DNA of 64,000 bases from Myxococcales bacterium. GTDB taxonomy: Bacteria; Myxococcota_A; UBA9042; JABWCM01. Positions within the stretch are counted from its first letter, which is position 1. Each line of letters opens with the position of its first letter. The translations under genes were made by a program, and so were the position numbers. Below, piece after piece: positions 9,375 to 29,530 of this stretch. The stretch spans positions 11,328-75,327 of the forward strand of contig JABWCM010000001.1 in the NCBI GenBank assembly GCA_013360285.1, given 5' to 3'. The notes beneath the pieces are model-generated. The model was given only the letters and a program-made list of their open reading frames with translations. It was not told the origin of the DNA and did no database searches.

Positions 9375-9950
9375 TGATGAAATAATTTATTTCGACCGTG
9401 AAATAATTTATTTCGACCGTGAAATAATTTATTTAGCATCAGAAATAATTTATTTAGCATCAGAAATAATTTATTTAGCATCAGAAATAATTTATAATTC
9501 TAAAAAATTATTTATTTATTGTATGAAACAAATTATTTCAATACATAAATAATTTATATTGAGTGTTAAAATATTTATTTTAATGTAAAATAATTATTCT
9601 GGCAATTGAAAAATATTATTTCATGTGCCAGATAAATTATTTTGAGTGTAACGAAAATTATATTTTGAAAAAATAAATTACTTTATGCACGAAATAATTT
9701 ATTTCACATTGAAGATAATTTATTTTATACACGAAATAAATTATTTAGATGAAAAATAAATAATATGATGATCGAAAATAATAATTTGAGATTAAGAATA
9801 AATGATTTTGAATATAAAATAATTTATTTTGATTTGTCAAAAATAATAATTTGTATGGAATAAATTATTTCGACCGTGAAATAAATTATTTCACATGCAA
9901 AAAAAATTATTTCGGTCGTGAAAAAAATTATTTTGAATCACGAATACAGT
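9375..9950. repeat. AT-rich array of ~27 degenerate direct repeats with ~21-bp period; core AAATAATTTATTT (near-palindromic) plus a variable 6-8-bp GC-containing tail
   Basis: Read directly: gaaataatttatttcgaccgt x2, gaaataatttatttagcatca x3, then more than 20 degenerate copies; terminal units again carry cgaccgt/cggtcgt tails. About 20% GC versus about 60% in the flanks. Confidence 0.9.
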
Positions 9951-10942
9951 CTCAATTTTCGCCACAGCGTATTGCGGGCTATACCCAGTTTGTCTGCCGC
10001 CATCGCTTGATTTCCTTGGCACAGATCCATGACACGTAAAATGTGTCGCCGTTCCATTTCCGCCAATGTCCACGTTTCCTGCTGATCGGTTGCCGATAAT
10101 TCTTCGGCACGGAATCGATTTTGATTTTGGCGTAATTCTTCGGGTAAATCCCGTGCTTCGATCCACAATCCGGTGGCCAACGCGGCACCATGACGTACGG
10201 CGTTTTGTAATTCCCGCACATTGCCGGGCCAGGCATAGTTTTGTAATTGTTGTTGTGCTTCGTTGGAAAAATCCTGGGCGACCACGGCTTCTTCCGCAAG
10301 AAAGGTTCGTGCCAACGGCAACACATCTTCTTTCCGGTCCCGAAGCGGCGGCATCGTCAACGTCAACACTTTCAGCCGAAAATACAGATCTTGCCGAAAT
10401 TTTCCTTCCCGGACCAGTTCGGCCAGATCCCGGTGGGTCGCACACACAATCCGCAAATCCACAGCAAATGTTTGGTTTTCGCCAACACGACGGATCTCCC
10501 CGTCCTGTAACGCACGTAATAGTTTGGCTTGTATGGGCAACGCCATTTCCCCAATTTCGTCAAGAAACAACGTGCCGGATGCCGCTTCTTCCATGAGCCC
10601 GCGCCGGCTGGAAGCGGCTCCCGTAAACGCGCCTTTTCCGTGGCCGAACAACTCCGACTCCAGCAGTTCCGTAGGCAATGCGGCAACATTGATCGCGACA
10701 AACGGTTGATTGGCCCGTCGGCTGTTTTGATGGATCAGCCGCGCGATGACTTCTTTTCCGGTTCCGGTTTCTCCATAAATCACCACCGGGGCTAGGCTTA
10801 CAGCAAATCGAGCCGCCCGTTTGCATACTTCCTGCATGACCGGTGACATAGACACTACAAAAGCCGACTTCGTCCATCGCGATACCACCGGTGCCATTCC
10901 ACATACATCACAAGTTGGTTTGTTCTGTTCCATGTGTTCCAT
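9938..10942 (-). CDS. Sigma-54-dependent transcriptional activator (bacterial enhancer-binding protein) consisting only of the AAA+ sigma-54 interaction domain and a C-terminal Fis-type HTH; no N-terminal sensory domain
   Basis: Motifs VVIYGETGTGKEV (Walker A), ESELFGHGKGAFTGA (GAFTGA sigma-54 contact loop), LFLDEIGEM (Walker B), C-terminal HTH ..AADKLGIARNTLWRKLRLYS. Only ~30 aa precede the AAA domain and include CDVCG; an alternative start would be Met31. Confidence 0.85.
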   Translation of the reverse strand: MEHMEQNKPTCDVCGMAPVVSRWTKSAFVVSMSPVMQEVCKRAARFAVSLAPVVIYGETGTGKEVIARLIHQNSRRANQPFVAINVAALPTELLESELFGHGKGAFTGAASSRRGLMEEAASGTLFLDEIGEMALPIQAKLLRALQDGEIRRVGENQTFAVDLRIVCATHRDLAELVREGKFRQDLYFRLKVLTLTMPPLRDRKEDVLPLARTFLAEEAVVAQDFSNEAQQQLQNYAWPGNVRELQNAVRHGAALATGLWIEARDLPEELRQNQNRFRAEELSATDQQETWTLAEMERRHILRVMDLCQGNQAMAADKLGIARNTLWRKLRLYS

Positions 10943-11067
10943 TGTGGAACACCATCATGGAACAGTCAATCGAAATGGTGTTACCAAACCCAAGGGTGGT
11001 GTCGTTTCAACATGGCATTCAAATTGCTTTACCTTTGGAAAACCCGGGGGAAATAAAGGATATGTCT

Positions 11068-11760
11068 ATGATTTCGACCCAAAAAACCATCGCCGAATGG
11101 GTGTTGGACCATTCGGAATGTGCTTCGGTTTTTCAAAGGCACCACATCGATTTTTGCTGCCGTGGGCATCTGACCGTCGATGAAGCCTGTGACCAAAAAG
11201 GATTGAATCCAAAAACCATATTGGAGGACTTAAACCGGGCCATCGCCGAACGGCAGGGCGGCCCATCGGTCGATTACCGCACCCTGAGCACAGTTGCCCT
11301 GATCGCCCATATCATTCAGACACATCATGAATATTTACGAAAAACACTGCCGTTTCTGCGGCCTTTGGCTTCCAAAGTGGCCCGGGTTCATGGCGATACG
11401 AATGCCAACCTGCATGAATTGGAACTCATCGTCTTTGAACTTGTGGAAACCTTACTTCCCCATCTGGATGCTGAAGAACAAGAATTGTTCCCTCTGCTGA
11501 TGACCAAAAACCCGGACAAAAGCCTGGTCGACAGCCAATTTACGCTGATGGCCGAGGATCATTTGTTGGTGGGGGAATTGTTGGCCCGGATGCGTAAAAC
11601 AACCAACCAATTTCGGCTTCCGCAGGCAGCATGTAATAGTTACCGAACCTTGTTTTCCGAACTCGAACAACTGGAAGGCGATATTCTTCGCCATGTGCAC
11701 CTCGAAAATCATGTGCTGATGCCGCGGTTTGTGTCGACAAGTACGCCATTGTCACATTAG
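11068..11760 (+). CDS. ric: Iron-sulfur cluster repair di-iron protein (RIC/YtfE/ScdA family: ScdA_N plus hemerythrin-like domain)
   Basis: AAAGGA RBS 7 nt before ATG 11068 (six-frame ORF 10891..11760 has a spurious N-terminal extension). HHIDFCCRGHLTVDEAC matches the YtfE N-terminal Cys motif. The C-terminal His/Glu-rich hemerythrin-like region is present. Confidence 0.8.
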   Translation: MISTQKTIAEWVLDHSECASVFQRHHIDFCCRGHLTVDEACDQKGLNPKTILEDLNRAIAERQGGPSVDYRTLSTVALIAHIIQTHHEYLRKTLPFLRPLASKVARVHGDTNANLHELELIVFELVETLLPHLDAEEQELFPLLMTKNPDKSLVDSQFTLMAEDHLLVGELLARMRKTTNQFRLPQAACNSYRTLFSELEQLEGDILRHVHLENHVLMPRFVSTSTPLSH

Positions 11761-11771
11761 GAGCTTAAACA

Positions 11772-12347
11772 ATGGAACTCATTGAAGTATTGATGAAGGA
11801 ACACCGGAAAATTGAAAATGTGCTGGATGAATTTCATGTGTGGGTCGACCGCATGATCGAAGAAAATGGGGACGCGCGGGAACAGCTTGGGCGTTTTGTG
11901 AAGTTTATTGTTGAGTTTGCCGACGGTTGGCACCACGGAAAAGAAGAAGACATCCTGTTCAAAACCATGGTGGAACATGGATTTCCTTCGCAGTTTGGTC
12001 CGATCGGTGTCATGATGCAGGAGCACGCTCAAGGCAGGGAATACGTGGCGCAATTACAACGGTTTGTCCAGCAAAACAGCCCGTGGGATGTCTCGGCGAG
12101 ACAACAGGTTGCCAAATTTGCCCTCTCGTATATCGATCTGCTGCGTAATCACATCCAAAAAGAAGATCAGATCTTGTACCCGATGGCTCAGGCACGCCTT
12201 CCTCAGGCCGCGATGGCCTTTATGCAGACACGATTGGAGGTTTTTGAAGGGGGACCCGGCAGAAACGAAGAACGGAATCGGGTTTGGCAACTGGGCCGGG
12301 ACCTAACGGAAAACTCGTGTTGTGGCTGCGGAGCCGAACACGACTAA
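11772..12347 (+). CDS. Hemerythrin HHE cation-binding domain protein
   Basis: 191-aa ORF with dispersed His/Glu ligand pattern (HRKIENVLDE..WHHGKEEDILF..MMQEHAQGREY..HIQKEDQILYP) typical of hemerythrin-like four-helix bundles. Directly follows ric. Confidence 0.7.
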   Translation: MELIEVLMKEHRKIENVLDEFHVWVDRMIEENGDAREQLGRFVKFIVEFADGWHHGKEEDILFKTMVEHGFPSQFGPIGVMMQEHAQGREYVAQLQRFVQQNSPWDVSARQQVAKFALSYIDLLRNHIQKEDQILYPMAQARLPQAAMAFMQTRLEVFEGGPGRNEERNRVWQLGRDLTENSCCGCGAEHD

Positions 12348-12350
12348 CCA

Positions 12351-14594
12351 TCACCACCGGAAAACTTCCAATAAGTCCGAATAATCATCGGTCCAGGGGC
12401 GGAATCTTTCGCGGCTAATCAACGGTGTCCACAAGGCGTTGCCCGCGAGTGCGCCGAAATCTTCGGGAGTGCGGGTCAAGATGGCCCAGCCGGATTTGTA
12501 TTTGGCGAGCCGTAAATCTTCGCTGGTTAACTCCCCAAAATCACGCCGGGCCAATGACACAAGACCCAACTGATAAGATACCGCTGCCAGTACCGGTTCC
12601 AGGTCCAGATACCAATTGGTGGTGTGAAAAGCAATCAACCCATGGGGTTTGAGTTTTCGCAAATACAATTCGATGGCTTCCCGGGTGATCAGATGTACCG
12701 GAATGGCGTCGGATCCGAACGCATCCAGCATGATCAGGTCAAATTGAGCGTCAGGAACGTTTTGCATGGTGATGCGGGCATCACCTGTGACCACGTCGAC
12801 TTTGCCGCGGCTGTCGGTGATGTAGGTAAATAACTTTGGATCCTGGGCGATACGGACCACTGCCGGGTCGAGTTCAAAAAATGTAAAGTGGGTGTTTTCT
12901 GCGGCATAAGTCGCCACCGTGCCGGCGCCTAAACCAACCAATGCCGCGTGTTGAAACTGGGGGCGAGACAACATTTCGGAAAAGATATCGCCGGCGGGGC
13001 CACTCCGAAAATAATAGGTAGTCGGCGCCAAACTCCACGGGGGTTGATCGTATTGCATTCCGTGTAATGTACGACCATGCCACAATTCGTGCCAATGGCC
13101 GCTGCCCGATTTTTTTTGCTGAACTTTGTAAATCCCAAAAAATGTCCGTTCAGCATAAAGTAAAGTACGGTCATCGGCATGATGCACGGAAGGCAACAGC
13201 GGCATAAGCAACTGATCGACGCCGGCAGCAATAGGCGCCAATACAAACAACACCAAACCGGCCAAATATTGAATTCGGCGAGACTGGACCAATCGTCGAT
13301 TGGTCTGGTTGGGGGATTTTTTGGGAAGGCGTAACGCACCTAGGCGCAAACCGCCAAAAAAACAACACAGCGCAATGGCGATGGTATATTCCGTGAGGTT
13401 GACAAAAATCTGCGGCGCAACAACGGTGTTAAAAACACCACCCAATGCTCCGCCGATAGATAAAAACAAATAAAATTCGGTTAGTCGGTCTGCTTTGGGG
13501 CGGCGTGCCCACAATCGACCGTGGCAGGCCATACATCCGGACCACAACAACACCAGGTGCGCGGCGCTGATCCATCCCATGGGACTGGGTGTTTCGGACC
13601 AGATCAACCATCCGACAATCGCCGACAACGGCGCAACCAACATTGCGCTAAATAAACTGACCACTCGGGACACGGCGCTGAAAGCAACAATAAAGGTCAA
13701 AAGATAAATGGCCAGCGGCACGGTCCAAAACATGGGAACAGGTGCGATGTTGGAGGTCAGGTGATGGGTTGTGCCCAGCATGAGTGTCGACGGTACAAAA
13801 GAAAATACCAACCAGGAGAACCGTTGAACCCATCGGTTGGATAGCGTGGGCTCTTCGACAACCGTCGGGGTTTCACCATTGGTTGGCATCACTGTCGCGG
13901 GGTATCGCAGGGCCAATACGCCACAAGTTAACGCCAATATCGCAAACACGAGACCCATCCAGGTCCAGCCGATGGTTTGAGAAGACATGGGCCACAGCGG
14001 TTCGATGACCACCGGGTATCCCACCAGGGCTAAGAGGCTTCCGATATTGCTGGCGATGTAAATACCATATGGATTGCCGGATCCGGGTAGGCGGGAACGG
14101 GCGAACCAGAATTGAAGCAACGGTGACGCCATCGACAGCACAAAAAACGGCAGGCCAATCCCCATCGCCGCAAACTGAATAGTTCGAATCGCCGGTGAAT
14201 CAACTGCATCGGGCAGTGTTTCGGGAAGGCCGATTGGCAGCGTAAGGGCGGCCGCACCCAACAGCAAGATGTACAATCCTAGCTGAATGACCGGCTTGTT
14301 AATCAACGACACCAGATGTGCACACAAATAACCGGCCAGCAACACGGTCTGAAAAAACAGCATACACGAGGTCCACACGGCGGGACCGCCTCCCAGATGC
14401 GGCAAAATCAATTTACCCACCATGGGTTGCGCAACAAATAACAACGATGCGGAGCACAACGTCGCTGCAGCAAAAATCAACCAACCATGTACCGGTGCTT
14501 CAGAGCGTATCGACAATTTCGGATTCGTCCTTAGAGGGTGTTTAGATACCGCTTCGATAAAACAAATCGAAATACCAGCGGTCGCGGATCTCAT
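12351..14594 (-). CDS. Polytopic membrane protein fused to a C-terminal spermidine-synthase-like (aminopropyltransferase/class I MTase fold) domain
   Basis: N-terminal ~480 aa are multi-TM hydrophobic. C-terminal LIMLDAFGSDAIPVHLITREAIELYLRKLKPHGLIAFHT resembles SpeE family. The six-frame ORF extends to 14627 and would overlap the upstream RNB gene by 86 nt; true start is probably internal (Met at 14594 or GTG at 14492). Confidence 0.65.
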   Translation of the reverse strand: MRSATAGISICFIEAVSKHPLRTNPKLSIRSEAPVHGWLIFAAATLCSASLLFVAQPMVGKLILPHLGGGPAVWTSCMLFFQTVLLAGYLCAHLVSLINKPVIQLGLYILLLGAAALTLPIGLPETLPDAVDSPAIRTIQFAAMGIGLPFFVLSMASPLLQFWFARSRLPGSGNPYGIYIASNIGSLLALVGYPVVIEPLWPMSSQTIGWTWMGLVFAILALTCGVLALRYPATVMPTNGETPTVVEEPTLSNRWVQRFSWLVFSFVPSTLMLGTTHHLTSNIAPVPMFWTVPLAIYLLTFIVAFSAVSRVVSLFSAMLVAPLSAIVGWLIWSETPSPMGWISAAHLVLLWSGCMACHGRLWARRPKADRLTEFYLFLSIGGALGGVFNTVVAPQIFVNLTEYTIAIALCCFFGGLRLGALRLPKKSPNQTNRRLVQSRRIQYLAGLVLFVLAPIAAGVDQLLMPLLPSVHHADDRTLLYAERTFFGIYKVQQKKSGSGHWHELWHGRTLHGMQYDQPPWSLAPTTYYFRSGPAGDIFSEMLSRPQFQHAALVGLGAGTVATYAAENTHFTFFELDPAVVRIAQDPKLFTYITDSRGKVDVVTGDARITMQNVPDAQFDLIMLDAFGSDAIPVHLITREAIELYLRKLKPHGLIAFHTTNWYLDLEPVLAAVSYQLGLVSLARRDFGELTSEDLRLAKYKSGWAILTRTPEDFGALAGNALWTPLISRERFRPWTDDYSDLLEVFRW

Positions 14595-16324: not shown

Positions 16325-17448
<1,124 letters not shown>

Positions 17449-17449
<1 letters not shown>

Positions 17450-18294
17450 TGGCGAATGTCACTGTGTTGTCTCAGCATGTCTGTTTTGGGGGGCGGCAGT
17501 TGTTTGTGGGTCACGAGTCGTTTTCGTGTAATGCTCCGATGCGGTTTTCGATATATTTGCCGCCGGCATCCGACCTGGGACGGGTGCCGGCGGTGATGTG
17601 TTTGGCGGGGTTGACCTGTACCGAAGAGACGTTTGCGACCAAAGCCGGTGCCCAACGATGGGCGGCAGAATGTGGATTGGCGTTGATTATGCCGGATACC
17701 TCTCCACGAGGCCTCAATTTGCCGGGAGACAGTGACCATTGGGATTTTGGAGTGGGTGCCGGTTTTTACGTAGATGCTACCGAGCCGCCGTGGTCGCAAC
17801 ATTATCGCATGTATCGATATGTGACCCAGGAACTGGTCGATTTGGTCGCCGCGGAATTTCCAATTCGTAAAGAAAAGTTAGGAATTTTGGGGCATTCAAT
17901 GGGAGGCCACGGCGCGTTGGTTTGTGGGCTTCGGAATCCCGACGTGTTTCAGTCGATTTCGGCGTTTGCACCGGTTGTGGCTCCGATGGTTTGTCCGTGG
18001 GGGCAAAAAGCATTTTCCCATTATCTGGGAAAGGAACGAGAAAGTTGGCGGCATTGGGATGCTTGCGAACTGGTGCGATCGGGAATTTCCACAAATGCGG
18101 AAATCTTGGTGGATGTCGGACTTGCGGACAAGTTTTTGACGACTCAGTTGATGCCGGAAAAATTGGAAGAGGTATGCGCCCGGTCTGGACAATCACTGAA
18201 GCTGAGACGGCATGCGGGTTATGACCACAGCTATTATTTTATTACGACCTTTGTTGAGGATCACCTTCGACATCACGCCAGATATTTAACTTAA
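17449..18294 (+). CDS. fghA: S-formylglutathione hydrolase (esterase D family)
   Basis: Serine-hydrolase nucleophile motif GHSMGGHGAL and full-length similarity to FrmB/YeiG. Operon partner of frmA. Confidence 0.9.
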
Positions 18295-18668
18295 GCAGAT
18301 TGTGTAGGGGAATGAAGCGCGATCCGGTTTCCTTCGCTGTCTGCAACAATGGCGCGAAATCCGTGGGGTCCGATTTGGTGAACCGGTGTCAGAACACGAC
18401 CGCCGTGGGCGATGGCGGCTTCGACGGCTTCGTTCAACCGTCCGTCCGCATTGAGATAGATAAGCGGACCTGTCATGGATGGTGCATTGCCATCGGTCGA
18501 TATGTAAATACATCCAGCCACATCTTGAGAAGAGTGCGGAAATACTCCCATAGAGAATTCGCCTTCACCGAATTTTTCTACTGTTTGCCCCAGTACCGCC
18601 GAATAAAACCGCAAAGCACGGTCCAGGTCGAGGACGGGAATGTCGATCCAAACAATCTGATGACTCAT
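18291..18668 (-). CDS. VOC (glyoxalase/bleomycin-resistance/dioxygenase) family protein
   Basis: 125 aa, MSHQIVWIDIPVLDLDRALRFY.. beta-alpha-beta-beta-beta module typical of VOC proteins. Confidence 0.65.
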   Translation of the reverse strand: MSHQIVWIDIPVLDLDRALRFYSAVLGQTVEKFGEGEFSMGVFPHSSQDVAGCIYISTDGNAPSMTGPLIYLNADGRLNEAVEAAIAHGGRVLTPVHQIGPHGFRAIVADSEGNRIALHSPTQSA

Positions 18669-19046
18669 TGTTGTTGCTCCAAGTTTGTCTGGTCCATTGG
18701 GTCACTTCAGCCATTGAAGTCCCACCGGTGAAGTGATCAACTTGAGACGTATTTCTGCCAAGACTGCCCACACCGGTCGAAAATACGATTCCTGACACGA
18801 ACTTACCGAGCGCTCGTCGACGTGTCAATCCAAGAAGAACAATCCGGTTGAACGGAAACGGTTGACTGGACTCATGCCTGCGATCATAATCGGCACATCG
18901 AAATGAGAACTCTGCTGCCGGTAATCCGGAAGTAGGTTCATGCGACCAGTCGAATGGCGGTTTACTGATGTCGTGATGGCAAGAACACGTGTTTCGGACA
19001 CGGCGTTGTGGCATTCACGTTATGTCGCTTCAATGGGAAGGACCTA

Positions 19047-22000
19047 TGGCCAACGTTCATAAGCGATTCGCGGCCTTTGTTTCACTCTGGGTCGGTGTTT
19101 TTGTCTTTGGGGTGTCGTCTCTGGCTTACGCCGTATGTTTGACACCTCCGGGCAATATTGGAGGTGAGCCGGTCACCAACATTGTCGACGTTCAATGTTC
19201 GATCTTGATGAATCTGTGGTCGTTGGGTGGCCAGGTATCGCCGGTACCGACCTGTATTACGACCCCGGGATCGCCGTCGATTATTGCCGATCACAATTGC
19301 GACGGCGTGATCAACGTCGGCGATACGCTGTTGGCGATTAATTTTGCGTTAAGCATTATTTTGGAACCGATTATCGACGCCAACGGCAATCAATGTGTCG
19401 ATGCGTGCGAAGCCGATTCCGATGGCGACGGAACGACCGATTTATTGGATTGTGCGCCCAATAATCCCGACATTTCGGCGGCAAGTGAAGAGTTGTGTAA
19501 CGGTTGGGACGACAACTGTAATGGAATCGTCGACGATGCCGTTTTGCCTTCTGTTGCGGCGTCCTGCAGTGACAACACGGTCTGTACCGGCATCGAGACC
19601 TGCGGGGCACTTTTGCCGAATCTCGGTATCGTGATTACCGAAATCATGGTTCAACCGACAAAGGTGCCCGAAGCGGTCGGTGAATGGTTTGAGATCTACA
19701 ATGGCGGCACGACGGCGATCAACATTACCGGATGGACTATTTCCAATGCGTTGGGACAAACCCACACGATTGTTCCCGGTGGATCGTTGTTTGTACCGCC
19801 GGCGGGTTATTTGGTTTTAGGCGCCAACGCCAACTTCGCTCAAAACGGCGGCGCGCGGGTTGCTTATGCATATTTGGGGTTGACCCTAGATAATGGTGGC
19901 GGCTCGTTGGTGCTCAAAAACAAAGATGGTGTGGAAATGGATCGGGTGGATTACGGAGCCGCCAAAGGAATCGGTGTGGTTCCGGGAGCGTCGTTGTCGT
20001 TACTCCGCCCGGATTTGAACAATAATGTAGCTTCGTCCTGGACGAAATCGACTTTGCCGTTTGGTGCCGGGGACTTGGGAACACCGTGGTCACCCAATAT
20101 AGATGTCATGCCGTCGTTTTGCCAAGCGGGTAGTCCATTGAATTGTGTCGATGGCAACGGCTGTACCGACGATAGCTGTGATCCCGTGGGTGGTTGTGTT
20201 TATGTGGCCAATACCGCGGTGTGCGACGATGGCAATGCCTGCACAACTACGGATGGGTGTATCAATGGTGTTTGTGTGGGTGGCCCGGCACTTAATTGTG
20301 ATGATGCCAACGGTTGTACCGATGACTCCTGTGATTCGGCAACCGGTTGCGTAAACGTCGACAACACTGCGGCATGCGACGACGGCACGGCATGTACCGA
20401 CGGCGATGTGTGTCAAGACGGCGCTTGTGTATCCGGGCCGTTGCTCGACTGCGATGACGCCAATCCGTGTACTGACGATAGCTGTGATGCCGCCCAGGGA
20501 TGTGTGAACGCACCCAATACGGTTATTTGCGATGACGGCAATGCCTGTACAACTGCGGATGGGTGTATCAATGGTGTTTGTGTGGGTGGCCCGGCACTGG
20601 ATTGTGATGACGCCAACGGTTGTACCGATGATTCCTGTGATTTGGCAACAGGATGTGTAAACGTCAACAACACGGCTGTATGTGACGATGGCACAGGATG
20701 TACTGCCGGCGATGTATGCCAGGATGGTGACTGTGTTTCCGGACCGTTGCTCGATTGCGATGACGCCAACCCGTGCACCAACGATGGCTGCGATGCCGCC
20801 TTGGGATGTGTTCATACGCCCAACACGAATGCCTGCGACGACGGCAACACCTGCACAACCACCGATGGTTGTAGCAACAACGTTTGTGTGGGGGGGCCTC
20901 CACTCGATTGTGATGACGCCAACAGTTGTACCGATGATTCCTGTGATTCGACAACTGGATGTATCCAAACACCCAACCTTGCCGCCTGCGATGACGGGAA
21001 TCAGTGTACCGTGGGAGATGTCTGTGGAGGCGGTATCTGTCATTCGGGCTCCCCCCTCAATTGTAATGACGGCGATGAATGTACTGTCGACAGTTGTTTG
21101 CCCGAGTCCGGGTGTTTGTTTGTTCCGGCGCCCGGTTGTGAACTGGAGGGCAACGCCATTTGTTTGATTTCCGGACCTGCGGGAACCAAAGTGCTTTGTC
21201 CACTGAAGTTATCGCGAGCGACGATGGCCATGCCGCCGGCCACCAGTGTTCAGTTTCGGCTTGTATGGGATACAACGGCGGTCAATCCGCTTGGATTAAC
21301 CGACACGATCTGCACCGGTCCTGGGGGCACACCGCCCTGTTCGTCGGTGGGTATCCCCCCGGCTACTTTGGATCCAACCGGGCATTCGGTATTTCCCATT
21401 CCTGAAGATTTTGCCGCAGCCAATGGTGGATCGATCGTGTTTGTATTGCCGTTAAGTGAACCGACCACGCCTATCACCACGGCATATCAGTTTGTTGGGT
21501 CACCGGTGGGTAATCCGGAATTTCTGACTTTTGAAATCGAAAGCCTGGTCGATATTCCCGCATCGGCGCCCCTTGCAGTCGAAGTGTTTGATATTATAGG
21601 GGCGACCGCCACCGTAGCCCCGATGGTCGGCGGAATGCAAAACGGTGTCATGGTGATGGAACTGGTCAATTGTTCGCTGGATCCGTCTGTGTGTACCGAT
21701 GGCAGTATTTGTACTACCGACGGCTGTGATCCGGCGACGCACCAGTGTGTGTGGGTAGATGCTTTGGCCTGTAACGACGGGGATATGTGTAACGGCATCG
21801 AAAGTTGTGATCCAACCAATGGTTGCGAGCCCGGGAACACCCCCGATTGTGATGATGGGGTCGAATGCACTCAGGACACGTGTGATCCGGCTGTTGGATG
21901 CAAAAACGTAAACAACGACGCCGGTTGCGACGACGGCAAAAACTGCACCTTGGATGTATGTGACCCGGTTGAGGGATGTCAAAACCCCGTTGACGTGTCG

Positions 22001-25000
22001 TTATGTAATGACAACATCCCGTGTACCGAAGAAAGTTGTGATGCCGGTGGTCATTGTGTCCACACACCGATAGACGGCAATTGTGACGACGGCGCAGCAT
22101 GTACGACAGATGTTTGTGATCCCCAACTGGGTTGTCAATATACTTCCGACGTGTCTATTTGTACGGCCGACGACAATGCATGTACGGAAACCGTTTGTGT
22201 GCCGGTTCTGGGGTGCACAAACACACCTTCTCCCGGATGTCTGCCGGATGGTGCGGTATGTGCACTGAGTGGCACGGCAGGTCAAGAAGTGTCGTGTGTT
22301 ATTCGAGTAGCTCGTGCGACAATCGGCACACCGCTGCCGGCGGCGTTGCAGTGGGTTCTCACCTACGATGTGTCGTTGTTTTCACCTACCGCGTTTGAAG
22401 ACACCGTTTGTACAGGTCCAGGGGGAAGTGCACCTTGTGCGCCGGCGTTTGTGCCGCCTGCCGCGTTGTTTCCGTCCGGCCATACACTGGCGACGTTGCC
22501 GTCGGTGTCCCAATGGAACGGTTCGGGTCATGTTGTTGCCTATCATCCGACGGAGCCCACCTCGGTGCTGACGGAAGCAGTTCTGCAAGCGTCATCCATC
22601 GTGGGTGATCCGGCGATCGTGGTGCTCAAAGGTGTCCTGACGGTAGATATACCCGCCGAAACACCGATGTGGATCAACGCCGTCAATATTATCGGCGCAA
22701 GCGTCCAGGTCACTCCATTGTATGGGCAGGTCCAGGATGGGTTGATCGTATTGTCGGTTCCGGATTGCACGTCCTCGCCCGCGGTTTGTGAAGACGGCGA
22801 CCCCTGCACCGTGGACACCTGTTTTGAAGGAACTTGCACATATCAACCACAGCCGTGCAGTGACTCCGACGCATGTAACGGCACCGAAACTTGTTTGCCG
22901 TTGGTCGGTTGTCAGCTCGCCACCCCTCCTCAATGTGACGACGGTCAGAATTGTACTACCGATGGGTGCGATCCTGCCTTGGGGTGTGTTTATGCAGCCG
23001 ACGTGACCCAATGCGACGACTCCATTGCCTGCACAACAGATCAATGTCTACCGGTTTCCGGGTGTGTTCATATACCCGACGCCGGCGGTTGTAACGACGG
23101 GAACTTCTGCACTCTGGATCAATGTGATCCCGGTTTGGGTTGTACTCACACACCCGATGACAACGCCTGTGACGACGGGCAACTTTGTTCCACCGCGGTG
23201 TGCGATGTGCAGGCGGGGTGTGTTTTTGACACCGACGATGCAGCGTGTACGGATGACGGCGACCCTTGTACGACGTCCATGTGTGTTATCGGGGCTGGAT
23301 GCACCCATGTGCCGACCGAGACGTGTCCCACGTTGACATCATTATGCCTTTTGAGTGGAAACAGCGGCGATACAGTGGTCTGTACGTTACGACTTGCGAA
23401 AGGGACCGAGTTGACACCCAATCCGGCTTCGTTACAAGTTACGCTCACTTATGATGAGACCAAAGCCCAACCGACCGGCGTTTCGGACCAGGTATGTCCA
23501 GACCCGATGGGCCCATGTATGAGCCAATCGATCCCTCCCGGAGCGTTGTGGCCATCCGGACACACCGTTACACCCGCCCCGTTTCTATTTTCCAATTGGG
23601 GCGGGCAAGGGTCGTTGTTTTTCTATCATGCCGGGGATCCAGCCGCTCACTTAACGAGTGCATGGGAAAACGGTGACGGATTTGTAGGGGACACCCAACT
23701 TGTTGAACTGTCCTTTTTGCTGCTCGACGACGTAGCGCCGGAGTCGCCGATTGTTGTCGATGCGGGATCGATTATCGGCAGTACGGCGACCGTGGAAACG
23801 ATGATCGGCGCGGTGAAATCGGGTGTCATGGTGGTGTCGCTGGTGGATTGTACCACCGCACCAGGCGTTTGCGACGATGGGGATGCCTGTACGGTGGATT
23901 CATGTGATCCCGTCAGCAAGTCATGTGTGTATTCGACGCTCAATTGCAGCGATGGAGACGCCTGTAACGGCACGGAATCGTGTGTTTTCTGGAAAGGTTG
24001 TGTCCAAACACCGCCGCTCCAATGCGATGACGGCGTTGGCTGTACCCTGGATGTTTGTGACCCGGCAATCGGATGTTTGTTTACCCCCGTTGATGTCGAT
24101 TGCGATGATTCGATTGCCTGTACAAACGATGTCTGTGATCCCACCGTGGGGTGTATTTATACCGCCATGTCGGCGGATTGCGACGACAACGTGTCGTGTA
24201 CCATCGACACGTGTGTATTGGGTCTGGGTTGTCAATCTTTACCCGATGATTCATTTTGCGAAGATGGTGCGTCCTGTACGGCAGACACCTGTCATACCGT
24301 GTTGGGGTGTCAAACGAGTATCGATGACCTAGGTTGTGACGACTTCAACCCGTGCACGATCGACGCCTGTGTCCCAACACTCGGTTGTACCCATACTTTG
24401 ATTCAATCCATGGAATGTTTGCCGCCGGGCGCGTTGTGTGCGTTAAGCGGCGGCGCCGGGCAGGTCGTGACCTGTCCATTGCGGTTGGCGCGGGCCAATC
24501 CGGTCGCTCCGGGGGCGGCCGCGTTGCAGTTGAAGATCAGTTATGACCCTGTTGCATTGTCAATAGACGGTCTGGTTGATTCCCAATGTTTTGGACCGGG
24601 TGGGCCGTGTATGGATGTGGCTGTTCCGCCGGCGATGTTGTCTCCAACGGGGCATCAGGTAGCTCTGGCACCGAACACACCCGCGGCGTGGAACGGGTTG
24701 GGGACTGTATTTGTGTTCAACCCGGCCGATCCGACCGTTACGATTACCGAAGCGGCGGTAGACGCGGGAGCCGTGGCAGGCGATGCGTTGTTCGCCGAAT
24801 TGGTGTTCACGTTGCAGCAAACCATTGGTGCGGATAATCCGGCGATTGTCTGGCCGGAACAAATTCTTGGCAGCACGGCAATGGTGTCGCCGCTTGGTGG
24901 CAGCGTTGTTTCCGGTGTGATGATTACAAGTGTGGTGGGATGTCTCGACAACACCGAATGCGATGACGGAAACGCGTGCACGATAGATACTTGTACTACC

Positions 25001-25720
25001 GGAGTCTGTGAGTTTGAGTCTGGACCTGTGTGCAGTGATGGTGACCCTTGTAATGGGACCGAAAGTTGTGATCCGTGGACCGGTGGTTGTGTTTCCGGTG
25101 ACGTACCCGATTGTGACGATACGAACGATTGTACTACCGACGGTTGCGATGCCGGCGGATGTTTCCACGCGCCTCTGCTGACATCAGAATGTTTGCCGGA
25201 CGGGGCGTTGTGTGGCGCAGCCGGCCTTTCTGGTGAAGTGTTCACCTGCGAATTCCATGTGGTACGCGAATCGGCTTTGGTGCCGCCGGCCGCGGCTTTG
25301 GAAAGTACATTCAGCATGGATAACTCGGCTTTCAAGGTCACCAACTTTGTGGACACGGTTTGTTTTGGTGCGGGTGGGCAACCGCCCTGTTCCGACGTCT
25401 CGGTACCGCCCAATCTGTTGTTTCCGACGGGGCATTCGGTTGTTATTGTGCCGGAAAATCTCGCAATGTGGGCCGATGGTGGTTCGATTTTCTTGTTCAA
25501 TCTGAATGATCCAACGGTAGTGCTGACCCAAGCGGAAGCCGCCGCTGGGGCATCCAACGAATCTTTGGTTCTGAAAGTGGAAATAACGTTACAAAAAGAC
25601 ATCAGTGAGACCGAGCCTGCCTATCTGTGGGTAGGAGACATCAGCGGAGCAACGGTCGACGTACAGGAATTGGAAGGCCAATTGTTACAAGGAATTGTGG
25701 TGTTATCCGAAAAACCATAG
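19047..25720 (+). CDS. Giant (2224 aa) secreted multidomain protein: signal peptide, dockerin-like Ca-binding module, lamin-tail domain (LTD), more than 30 Cys-rich CxxDxNxCTxDxC repeats in five blocks, each block followed by a repeated ~250-aa Ig-like module
   Basis: GGAAGGA RBS before ATG 19047 (six-frame ORF starts 18989). Signal peptide MANVHKRFAAFVSLWVGVFVFGVSSLAYA. LTD ITEIMVQP..EWFEIYNGG..ITGWTISN..GGSLFVPPAGYLVLG. Repeats of CDDGNACTTxDGCxNGVCVGGPxLxCDDANxCTDDSCD. Five paralogous modules each start C(A/L)(L/I)SG.xG..V.C.L.(L/V)(A/S)R(A/E). Confidence 0.85.
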
Positions 25721-29228: not shown

Positions 29229-29530
29229 ATCGATTTTAGTTCGTAAAACACCGCTGTTTGCCCGACCCACTTTTTTTGACTCCTATATCCTCCAACGAAT
29301 ATCTATTCCACGTCTGTGATCTCCCATCCCCCGAATAGGATCACACTGTGATCACATGGTTTGATTCCGGTGATCACTCCGTCAAGTTTCCTGCGGTCGT
29401 CCCCTATCATCAATAGAACCACAACCATTTCCCCCGTTGTGGTCAAAACAAATTCCATCCGCTTGCCGAAAAAACTTGGCACTCACTTTGCTTTGTACCT
29501 TCTCGCGGCAACGTTGTGGAGGTCCCGGGT

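What the first reader, a model, noticed from the sequence alone, without database searches (positions are those of the whole stretch)
9938..12347. Sensor-less sigma-54 activator (CxxC N-terminus) divergent from ric/ytfE and hemerythrin: a nitrosative-stress module lacking the NorR GAF domain
The bEBP has only about 30 residues (including CDVCG) before its AAA+ domain, so unlike NorR it has no GAF/NO-sensing domain. Yet it is divergently arranged with an Fe-S repair di-iron protein (RIC) and a hemerythrin, classic NorR/NsrR regulon members. Regulation must occur in trans (a PspA/HrpV-type anti-activator) or through the short Cys-containing N-terminus. I could not find a canonical TGGCAC-N5-TTGCW -24/-12 element upstream of ric (10943-11067) by eye. 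The AT-rich array lies immediately 3' of the activator gene. The nearby frmA (16340..17449) encodes the class III ADH that is also GSNO reductase, so the whole 10-18 kb region reads as an NO/formaldehyde detoxification island.
Basis: partly seen in the sequence, partly recalled or inferred. Interest (0 to 1): 0.55.

Follow-up and report, generated by a model that had tools for sequence, protein, structure and literature searches.

The report
Cysteine-tagged sigma-54 activator controlling ric
A short sigma-54 activator, whose only candidate sensor is an invariant Cys-x-x-Cys-Gly peptide, sits back-to-back with an iron-centre repair gene (ric) that has a clear sigma-54 promoter and enhancer; the pair recurs across Myxococcota and I found no published description of it.

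Summary
The anatomy is real. A 334-aa bEBP (9938-10942, minus strand) has an AAA+ core, a lid and a Fis-type HTH, with only 29 residues ahead of the core. It is divergent from ric (11062/11068-11760) and a hemerythrin (11772-12347).

TGGCAT-N5-TTGCT lies at 11013-11028, 35 nt before the first ric ATG. About 70-90 bp upstream is a four-half-site enhancer (GTTCCA, GTTCCA, TGGAAC, TGGAAC; 10927-10963) that overlaps the activator's own start codon.

In 25 of about 28 informative related loci the same activator is divergently paired with ric. Nearly all are Myxococcota, including Vulgatibacter incomptus; the activator itself also occurs in Sorangium cellulosum. The promoter and the enhancer spacing are conserved. 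C11, C14 and G15 are invariant in 98 homologues. No third gene, and so no PspA/HrpV-type partner, is conserved.

It is not NorR (no GAF domain) and not PspF. It is best read as a dedicated, probably auto-repressed, sigma-54 switch for ric whose input enters through the N-terminal Cys pair. That last step is inferred. The "NO/formaldehyde island" is not supported. This is a new variant of a known kind.

The parts
9938..10942 (-). Sigma-54 enhancer-binding protein, 334 aa. It has a 29-residue N-terminal peptide, an AAA+ core (Walker A, GAFTGA, Walker B), an AAA lid and a Fis-type HTH. It is identical to NUN12009.1 from a Myxococcales MAG.
   Evidence: AF2 model: mean pLDDT 89, with residues 1-24 as coil at pLDDT 54-68.
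10889..10912 (-). Codons 11-18, CDVCGMAP: the family signature C-x2-C-G-[LM]-x-P and the only candidate sensory element.
   Evidence: C11, C14 and G15 are invariant, and L16 and P18 are at least 90% conserved, in 98 homologues of 59-80% identity. P18 is invariant in the 50-sequence N-terminal alignment. No PDB chain covers residues 1-28.
10927..10963 (.). Enhancer (UAS) with four half-sites: GTTCCA 10927-10932, GTTCCA 10936-10941, TGGAAC 10945-10950 and TGGAAC 10958-10963. It overlaps the bEBP start codon (ATG 10942-10940) and its first codons.
   Evidence: It is the only match in the window, even allowing 3 mismatches. The same arrangement (0, +9, +18, +30) recurs in related loci. The GAA codon bias shows a DNA-level constraint.
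11013..11028 (+). Sigma-54 promoter TGGCAT-N5-TTGCT (GG at 11014-11015, GC at 11026-11027). The inferred transcription start is near 11039.
   Evidence: An equivalent element lies upstream of ric (or of the first gene of its operon), ending 14-80 nt before the ATG, in 27 of 27 upstream regions; 25 of the 27 score at least 17.5.
11062..11760 (+). ric, the di-iron 'repair of iron centres' protein (ScdA_N + hemerythrin domains). Homologue lengths and the AAGGA spacing favour the second ATG, at 11068, as the start.
   Evidence: TIGR03652 above its cut-off; 47-57% identity to the paired ric genes elsewhere.
11772..12347 (+). Single-domain hemerythrin (191 aa, C-terminal SCCGCG tail), 11 nt after ric. 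It is probably the second gene of the operon.
   Evidence: The same gene order occurs in L031 and L028.

Best explanation
This is a self-contained sigma-54 switch for the ric-hemerythrin operon.

Shown:
- The activator carries all the parts needed to remodel sigma-54 holoenzyme.
- ric is preceded by a near-consensus -24/-12 promoter.
- About 70-90 bp upstream of the promoter lies a four-half-site enhancer.
- This regulator / enhancer / promoter / ric arrangement is conserved across Myxococcota.

Inferred:
- The activator binds the GTTCCA/TGGAAC array through its Fis-type HTH and loops to the promoter to open it.
- Because the array covers its own start codon and a weak sigma-70-like promoter, it also represses its own gene.
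- The stimulus enters through the invariant N-terminal C-x2-C-G peptide. This peptide is too short to fold alone, so it most likely forms a metal or Fe-S (or disulfide) link. The link would be either between two subunits or to Cys167/Cys308 of the same subunit.
- I propose that the intact site holds the AAA+ core off. NO, peroxide or loss of iron/Fe-S would destroy the site and release the active hexamer. ric expression would then report iron-centre damage directly.
For: Anatomy:
- Domains and motifs.
- Promoter at 11013-11028.
- Unique cluster of four TGTTCCA/TGGAACA sites.

Conservation:
- ric is the divergent neighbour in 25 of about 28 informative loci.
- Every ric upstream region has a -24/-12 element. 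Of 27 regions, 25 score at least 17.5, against a background of about 1.2e-4 per nt.
- Half-site spacing 0, +9, +18, +30 is conserved, starting 66-110 nt before the GG.
- In L018, ric lies 2.4 kb from the regulator yet keeps its own enhancer and promoter.
- In L014, L017 and L021 the enhancer is intergenic rather than in the coding start.
- Glu codons inside the half-sites are GAA in 23 of 27 cases, against 109 of 520 elsewhere in the same genes (p = 9e-12).

Cys peptide:
- C11, C14 and G15 are invariant while the flanking residues vary. A third Cys (Cx3Cx2C) is present in 34 of 98 sequences.
- A more distant sister group keeps CxxC.
- The peptide is coil with low-to-moderate confidence in the AF2 monomer.
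- No conserved third gene could act as a sensor.

Precedents for metal or Fe-S sensing in bEBPs: PexR (PMC12754779), OrpR (PMC8359166) and NorR.
Against: - No experiment or transcript data exists, so the promoter, the enhancer and binding to it are sequence inferences.
- Two cysteines are too few for a mononuclear or cluster site in one chain. An inter-subunit site, or use of C167/C308, is speculation, and C167- and C308-type cysteines also occur in other bEBPs (PspF from memory; P0136).
- The motif could be a structural zinc site or a docking peptide rather than a sensor.
- The signal (NO, H2O2 or iron status) is not determined.
- rpoN is not in the window. Its presence is assumed from what is known of Myxococcota.
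- Three loci are labelled Planctomycetota or Acidobacteriota MAGs. This may reflect binning error or gene transfer.
Confidence: 0.6

Rival explanations
1. PspA-like feedback. The activator is held off in trans by its own target, RIC (or the hemerythrin). RIC's di-iron centre or ScdA_N Cys pair would sense NO or iron damage. The CxxCG peptide would be the docking or shared-metal contact rather than an autonomous sensor.
For: - ric is the only gene strictly co-conserved with the activator.
- The layout mirrors pspF-pspA, where the divergent first gene encodes the anti-activator (established knowledge).
- Hemerythrin-domain genes recur next to the pair in about 8 loci.
- The RIC N-terminal domain carries a conserved CC pair (translation).
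Against: - There is no evidence of interaction.
- PspF needs no N-terminal peptide to bind PspA.
- In L018 and L016 ric is unlinked or differently placed.
- Hemerythrin neighbours are neither orthologous nor universal.
Confidence: 0.2
2. The activator is constitutively active and controlled only through its own level (auto-repression at the overlapping enhancer plus some upstream regulator). The CxxCG motif is a structural zinc knuckle for dimerisation or stability.
For: - The enhancer overlaps the activator's start codon and a weak sigma-70-like -35/-10.
- CxxCG is a typical zinc-knuckle sequence (general knowledge).
- Some sensor-less bEBPs, such as HrpR/S, are largely controlled by expression (general knowledge).
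Against: - A constitutive activator of a stress-repair gene with strict one-to-one pairing gives no obvious route for a signal.
- Invariance of a floppy 8-residue peptide suggests more than stability.
- The sigma-70 match is only 9 of 12 and is within chance expectation.
Confidence: 0.15
3. The gene is a truncated or decayed NorR that has lost its GAF domain. The locus is a remnant of a NorR nitrosative-stress module inside an NO/formaldehyde detoxification island.
For: - NorR activates a ric homologue (norA) from a sigma-54 promoter in Ralstonia eutropha (PMC9268430, PMC1274295).
- frmA lies 4 kb away.
Against: - The short form is conserved at 59-80% identity in at least 98 proteins with an invariant N-terminal motif.
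- NorR model NF003451 scores 306 against a cut-off of 476 and aligns only from profile position 188.
- The enhancer is GTTCCA-based, not GT-N7-AC.
- frmA is not near the pair in any other locus.
Confidence: 0.03

Closest known systems
NorR (E. coli, Ralstonia eutropha): NO-sensing sigma-54 activator of norVW/hmp and of norA (a ric homologue)
   Same: - A bEBP divergently linked to its target.
- A sigma-54 promoter in front of a nitrosative-stress or di-iron gene.
- Multiple upstream half-sites.
- ric homologues are known NorR targets (PMC9268430, PMC1274295).
   Different: - There is no GAF domain and so no mononuclear non-haem iron pocket.
- The enhancer sequence differs: GTTCCA/TGGAAC rather than GT-N7-AC.
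- The N-terminus is a 29-residue peptide with CxxCG.
PspF (and HrpR/HrpS): sensor-less bEBPs regulated in trans
   Same: - About 330 aa, made of an AAA+ core plus HTH with no folded sensor domain.
- Divergent from its target operon.
- The enhancer lies over its own promoter region, which implies auto-repression.
   Different: - It has a conserved Cys-containing N-terminal extension.
- No pspA/hrpV-like gene is co-conserved.
- TIGR02974 scores 256 against a cut-off of 444.
PexR of Myxococcus xanthus (PMC12754779) and OrpR of Desulfovibrio vulgaris (PMC8359166)
   Same: - Redox- or metal-based stress sensing by bEBPs.
- PexR is also divergently paired with its target (ahpC) across Myxococcota, with conserved enhancers and a sigma-54 promoter.
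   Different: - PexR senses through a Zn/Fe GAF domain, and OrpR through an Fe-S cluster in a PAS domain.
- Here no domain exists, only a Cys pair.
- The target is ric rather than ahpC/katB or orp.
FNR: a CRP-family regulator with an N-terminal Cys extension that binds a [4Fe-4S] cluster
   Same: A short N-terminal cysteine peptide is grafted onto an otherwise complete regulator core. In FNR it senses O2/NO by cluster loss and changes the oligomeric state. This is the model for the proposed mechanism.
   Different: - It is a different protein superfamily.
- FNR has three N-terminal Cys plus one core Cys. Here only two N-terminal Cys are invariant, and cluster binding is untested.

Membership tests
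Bacterial enhancer-binding proteins (sigma-54 activators) | AAA+ sigma-54 interaction domain with Walker A, Walker B and the GAFTGA loop | tested here: met
   PF00158 matches at 4.6e-69 over residues 30-195. GETGTGKE, GAFTGA and DEIGE are present in the translation.
Bacterial enhancer-binding proteins (sigma-54 activators) | C-terminal Fis-type HTH and a cognate enhancer upstream of a -24/-12 promoter | tested here: met
   HTH_8 at residues 292-331. The enhancer lies at 10927-10963 and the promoter at 11013-11028, and both are conserved in related loci. Binding itself is not testable here.
NorR | N-terminal GAF domain with a non-haem iron NO-sensing centre | tested here: not met
   No domain lies before residue 30 and the ORF cannot be extended. 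NF003451 scores 306 against a cut-off of 476 and aligns only to profile positions 188-503.
NorR | Three GT-N7-AC enhancer sites | tested here: not met
   The enhancer half-sites are GTTCCA/TGGAAC at 0, +9, +18 and +30.
PspF-type | No N-terminal extension; negative control by PspA encoded in the divergent operon | tested here: not met
   A conserved 29-residue Cys peptide is present. The neighbours are ric and hemerythrin, with no PspA_IM30 among the Pfam-annotated neighbours. TIGR02974 and NF008622 score below their cut-offs.
RIC / YtfE / ScdA (TIGR03652) | ScdA_N domain plus a di-iron hemerythrin-like four-helix bundle; score above the curated cut-off | tested here: met
   PF04405 and PF01814 both match. 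TIGR03652 scores 211.1 against a cut-off of 204.7. Biochemical activity is not testable here, and YtfE/ScdA have also been described as NO-forming nitrite reductases (PMC9052748, PMC12412097).
Sigma-54 promoter | GG and GC dinucleotides exactly 10 nt apart within TGGCAC-N5-TTGCW, placed shortly upstream of a gene start | tested here: met
   TGGCATTCAAATTGCT has one mismatch and lies 35 nt before the first ric ATG. Dependence on RpoN is not testable here, and rpoN is not in the window.
Fe-S or metal-sensing regulators (FNR, NsrR, IscR type) | A set of three or four Cys/His ligands binding a cluster or metal | not testable with these tools
   Only C11 and C14 are invariant in the peptide. C7 is present in 40% of sequences, C167 in 93% and C308 in 99%. 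No multimer or ligand modelling was available.

The most novel reading that the evidence does not exclude
The N-terminal C-x2-C-G peptide is the smallest sensory module yet seen on a sigma-54 activator. Pairs of peptides (or the peptide plus core cysteines) would assemble a labile Fe-S or metal centre that keeps the AAA+ ring from forming. Damage to that centre by NO, oxidants or iron loss would switch on ric. The activator's own iron centre would then be both the sensor and a client of the repair system it induces. This would be an FNR/IscR-style feedback built on a bEBP, possibly governing a wider iron-centre regulon (radical SAM enzyme, hemerythrins, an unknown membrane protein).
Probability: 0.3. 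Interest if true: 0.7.

Novelty: new variant of a known kind. Interest (0 to 1): 0.55.

Why it matters
Regulation of ric is known through NsrR, NorR, DnrD and SrrAB (PMC9268430). I found no description of this regulator in five full-text searches, and no curated NCBIfam model reaches its cut-off.

If the Cys peptide is the sensor, an eight-residue motif would replace a whole GAF, PAS or receiver domain. That would be a compact, portable redox/NO input for AAA+ activators. It would also be a clean model for how bEBP assembly is gated.

The pair comes with a fully specified cis-architecture (enhancer, promoter, spacing). It has orthologues in cultured strains: Vulgatibacter incomptus AKU91159.1 and Sorangium cellulosum So ce56 CAN97032.1. 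The hypothesis is therefore directly testable.

The locus also illustrates a coding start whose first codons are fixed by a DNA-binding site.

Tried and rejected
- An exact-protein contig look-up for the window's bEBP found nothing.
- The first N-terminal alignment was too variable for the locus search. A narrower alignment worked.
- I looked for a conserved anti-activator or third gene by tblastn of 16 neighbour proteins against all loci. None was conserved. The 104-aa ORF beyond the AT-rich array is shared only with the closest relative.
- frmA linkage was not found in any other locus.
- NorR and PspF membership was rejected on domain content and curated cut-offs.
- A profile of the N-terminal 57 positions against 1.84 billion representatives gave only 19 hits. 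The motif is therefore confined to this compact family and is not a widespread module.
- Rfam found nothing meaningful in 8500-12600.
- The sigma-70 and terminator scans were at chance level and were not used, beyond noting one weak overlap.
- His3/His6 of 'MEHMEH' were considered as metal ligands. I rejected this as unnecessary, because their conservation is explained by the DNA half-sites.
- The metagenome scan with the enhancer pattern returned 91 of 116 hits without the bEBP or ric. Most are low-GC chance or unrelated matches, and only a few GC-rich ones carry a correctly spaced promoter.
Full report
**What is there**

The window comes from a Myxococcales MAG. The bEBP is 100% identical to NUN12009.1.

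ORF 9938-10942 on the minus strand is the longest possible reading frame at 334 aa. Pfam finds Sigma54_activat at residues 30-195, AAA_lid_14 at 201-277 and HTH_8 at 292-331, and nothing before residue 30. Walker A (GETGTGKE), GAFTGA and Walker B (DEIGE) are all present.

The divergent gene is a bona fide RIC. It has ScdA_N and Hemerythrin domains, and TIGR03652 scores 211.1 against a cut-off of 204.7. Its first ATG is at 11062. Homologue lengths and the AAGGA spacing favour the second ATG at 11068.

A 191-aa hemerythrin follows after 11 nt, at 11772-12347.

TGGCATTCAAATTGCT lies at 11013-11028 on the ric strand. The window has 2 exact matches to TGGCAY-N5-TTGCW against 0.14 expected. With a simple weighted score, only 3 of about 128,000 positions in the window reach this site's value.

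The GC dinucleotide is 35 nt from the first ric ATG. By convention this places the transcription start near 11039 (inference). Region 9194-9400 has no such element.

The other exact match, at 29477-29492, is also intergenic and just upstream of an ORF. This fits a genome that uses sigma-54. rpoN itself is not in the window.

**The enhancer**

Four TGTTCCA/TGGAACA sites are packed into 10926-10964: two forward, then two reverse. The composite GTTCCA-N3-GTTCCA-N3-TGGAAC occurs only here in the 64 kb, even allowing three mismatches.

The array starts 87 nt upstream of the -24 GG, and the bEBP's ATG (10942-10940) sits within it. The protein's first residues, MEHMEQ, are encoded by the half-sites themselves (ATGGAACACATGGAACAG).

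**Comparative evidence**

The 120 best homologues are 59-80% identical proteins, mostly about 330 aa, from Myxococcota: Sorangium, Vulgatibacter, and MAGs of Polyangiaceae and Kofleriaceae. A few MAGs carry other phylum labels.

Of these 120, 110 show C-x2-C-G-[LM] before the AAA+ core. The others look like N-terminally truncated gene calls. In a 98-sequence full-length alignment C11, C14 and G15 are invariant, and L16 and P18 are at least 90% conserved. A third Cys four residues upstream (Cx3Cx2C) occurs in 34 of the 98. More distant relatives keep CxxC.

In 30 loci fetched by protein or by N-terminal pattern, ric is the divergent neighbour in 25 of about 28 informative cases.

Every ric upstream region carries a -24/-12 element. 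The consensus is TGGCAC-N5-nTGCT, ending 14-80 nt before the ATG of ric or of the first gene of its operon. Of 27 regions, 25 score at least 17.5, against a background of about 1.2e-4 per nt.

The half-site arrangement 0, +9, +18, +30 recurs, beginning 66-110 nt upstream of the GG.

Three observations separate the DNA signal from coding constraints:
- In L014, L017 and L021 the array is intergenic, and the protein starts differently.
- In L018, ric is 2.4 kb from the regulator yet keeps its own array and promoter.
- Glu codons inside the half-sites are GAA in 23 of 27 cases, against 109 of 520 elsewhere in the same, mostly GC-rich, genes (Fisher p = 9e-12).

The conserved 'MEH' is therefore explained by the enhancer and not by a need for histidine ligands.

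**What is not conserved**

No third gene accompanies the pair. Hemerythrin-domain genes of different kinds recur in about eight loci. DUF4149/CopD occurs in four loci and DUF6448 in three. One locus has a NifU gene immediately adjacent and a SUF operon close by.

None of the Pfam-annotated neighbours is PspA- or HrpV-like. frmA and the esterase gene (16340-18294) look like an ordinary formaldehyde pair, and they are absent from every other locus. The proposed detoxification island is not supported.

**Mechanism**

Shown by sequence and conservation: a complete bEBP, its enhancer, a sigma-54 promoter and ric form one conserved module.

Inferred:
- The HTH binds the array, and ATP-driven remodelling opens the ric promoter.
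- Occupancy of an array that covers the activator's own start represses the activator gene. A weak sigma-70-like match overlaps it.

For signal input, the only family-specific conserved feature is the Cys peptide. AF2 models it as coil of low-to-moderate confidence on an otherwise confident core: mean pLDDT is 89, against 54-68 for residues 1-20. No solved structure covers it.

Two cysteines cannot build a site alone. I therefore propose an inter-subunit metal or Fe-S bridge, or a site completed by C167 (93% conserved) or C308 (99% conserved). Loss of this site on NO, oxidant or iron stress would release the active oligomer.

This is analogous to FNR's N-terminal Cys extension. It also parallels the metal or Fe-S sensors PexR (PMC12754779), OrpR (PMC8359166) and NorR.

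The main rival is PspA-like feedback by RIC itself, the only co-conserved protein. A structural zinc knuckle on a constitutively active protein is also possible.

**Comparison with known systems**

It is not NorR. It has no GAF domain, NF003451 scores below its cut-off and aligns only from profile position 188, and the enhancer differs.

It is not PspF. It carries a conserved N-terminal peptide, has no pspA neighbour, and scores below the model cut-off.

It works like these systems as a divergent, dedicated sigma-54 switch. NorR control of a ric homologue (norA) is documented (PMC9268430, PMC1274295).

The RIC review lists NsrR, DnrD, NorR and SrrAB among others as ric regulators, and does not include this family. 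Five full-text searches found no description of it. The curated annotation is generic.

A profile of the N-terminus finds only 19 representatives among 1.84 billion proteins. The motif is therefore confined to this compact family.

**Possible wider regulon**

I scanned metagenome contigs with the exact enhancer pattern. This recovered 25 further bEBP/ric loci. In GC-rich contigs, the same array with a -24/-12 element 75-78 nt downstream also precedes three other genes:
- a B12-binding radical SAM gene (L059; also L033, which carries the bEBP-ric pair 3.5 kb away);
- an unannotated 435-aa polytopic membrane protein (L043);
- a hemerythrin-like ORF (L070).

This is suggestive only.

**Verdict**

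The feature is a new variant of a known kind: a Myxococcota-wide, minimal-sensor sigma-54 activator dedicated to ric. The architecture is well supported. The sensing mechanism is a hypothesis that can be tested in cultured Sorangium or Vulgatibacter.

Noticed in passing
window 9379-9933: An AT-rich array of about 26 units of 20-21 bp. Each unit has a near-palindromic 13-nt core (AAATAATTTATTT) and a 7-8 nt variable part. It lies between the 3' end of the bEBP gene and a 104-aa ORF (8879-9193, minus strand) with no family match. A diverged array sits at the same place in the 80%-identical relative (L031, about 6460-6800). There is no Rfam hit. Its function is unknown; the phasing at two helical turns suggests a protein-binding or curved-DNA array.
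   Followed up: partly
window 29477-29492 (and about 29330-29380): A second, perfect sigma-54 element, TGGCACTCACTTTGCT. It lies in an intergenic region about 40-55 nt before ORF 29516/ATG 29532. GTGATCAC-type repeats about 100-150 bp upstream look like another enhancer.
   Followed up: partly
L059 587-2053; L033 1-348; L043 3574-4881; L070 1964-2485: The same GTTCCA-N3-GTTCCA-N3-TGGAAC enhancer, with a -24/-12 element 75-78 nt downstream, precedes three other genes in GC-rich metagenome contigs. These are a B12-binding radical SAM gene, an unannotated 435-aa membrane protein and a hemerythrin-like ORF. The regulon may extend beyond ric.
   Followed up: partly
window 10925-10942 and loci L001-L031: The first codons of the activator (MEH/MEHMEH) are enhancer half-sites. 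GAA is used for Glu in 23 of 27 cases even in genomes of 70-75% GC. In L006 the second codon of this register is a stop, so translation there must start at the second ATG.
   Followed up: yes
window 12320-12347: The operon's hemerythrin ends in a Cys-rich tail, SCCGCGAEHD. SCCG is kept in the closest relative (L031) but not in L028.
   Followed up: partly
window 16340-18668: frmA (a class III ADH-like gene) overlaps by one base a PF00756 esterase gene (S-formylglutathione hydrolase-like). A convergent glyoxalase-family gene follows. This looks like an ordinary formaldehyde detoxification pair, unlinked to the ric module in other genomes.
   Followed up: partly
window 4920-8810 and 18989-25720: Two very large ORFs of 1296 aa and 2243 aa. 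The second is built of many Cys-rich CxDxxxC-type repeats. Neither was examined.
   Followed up: no
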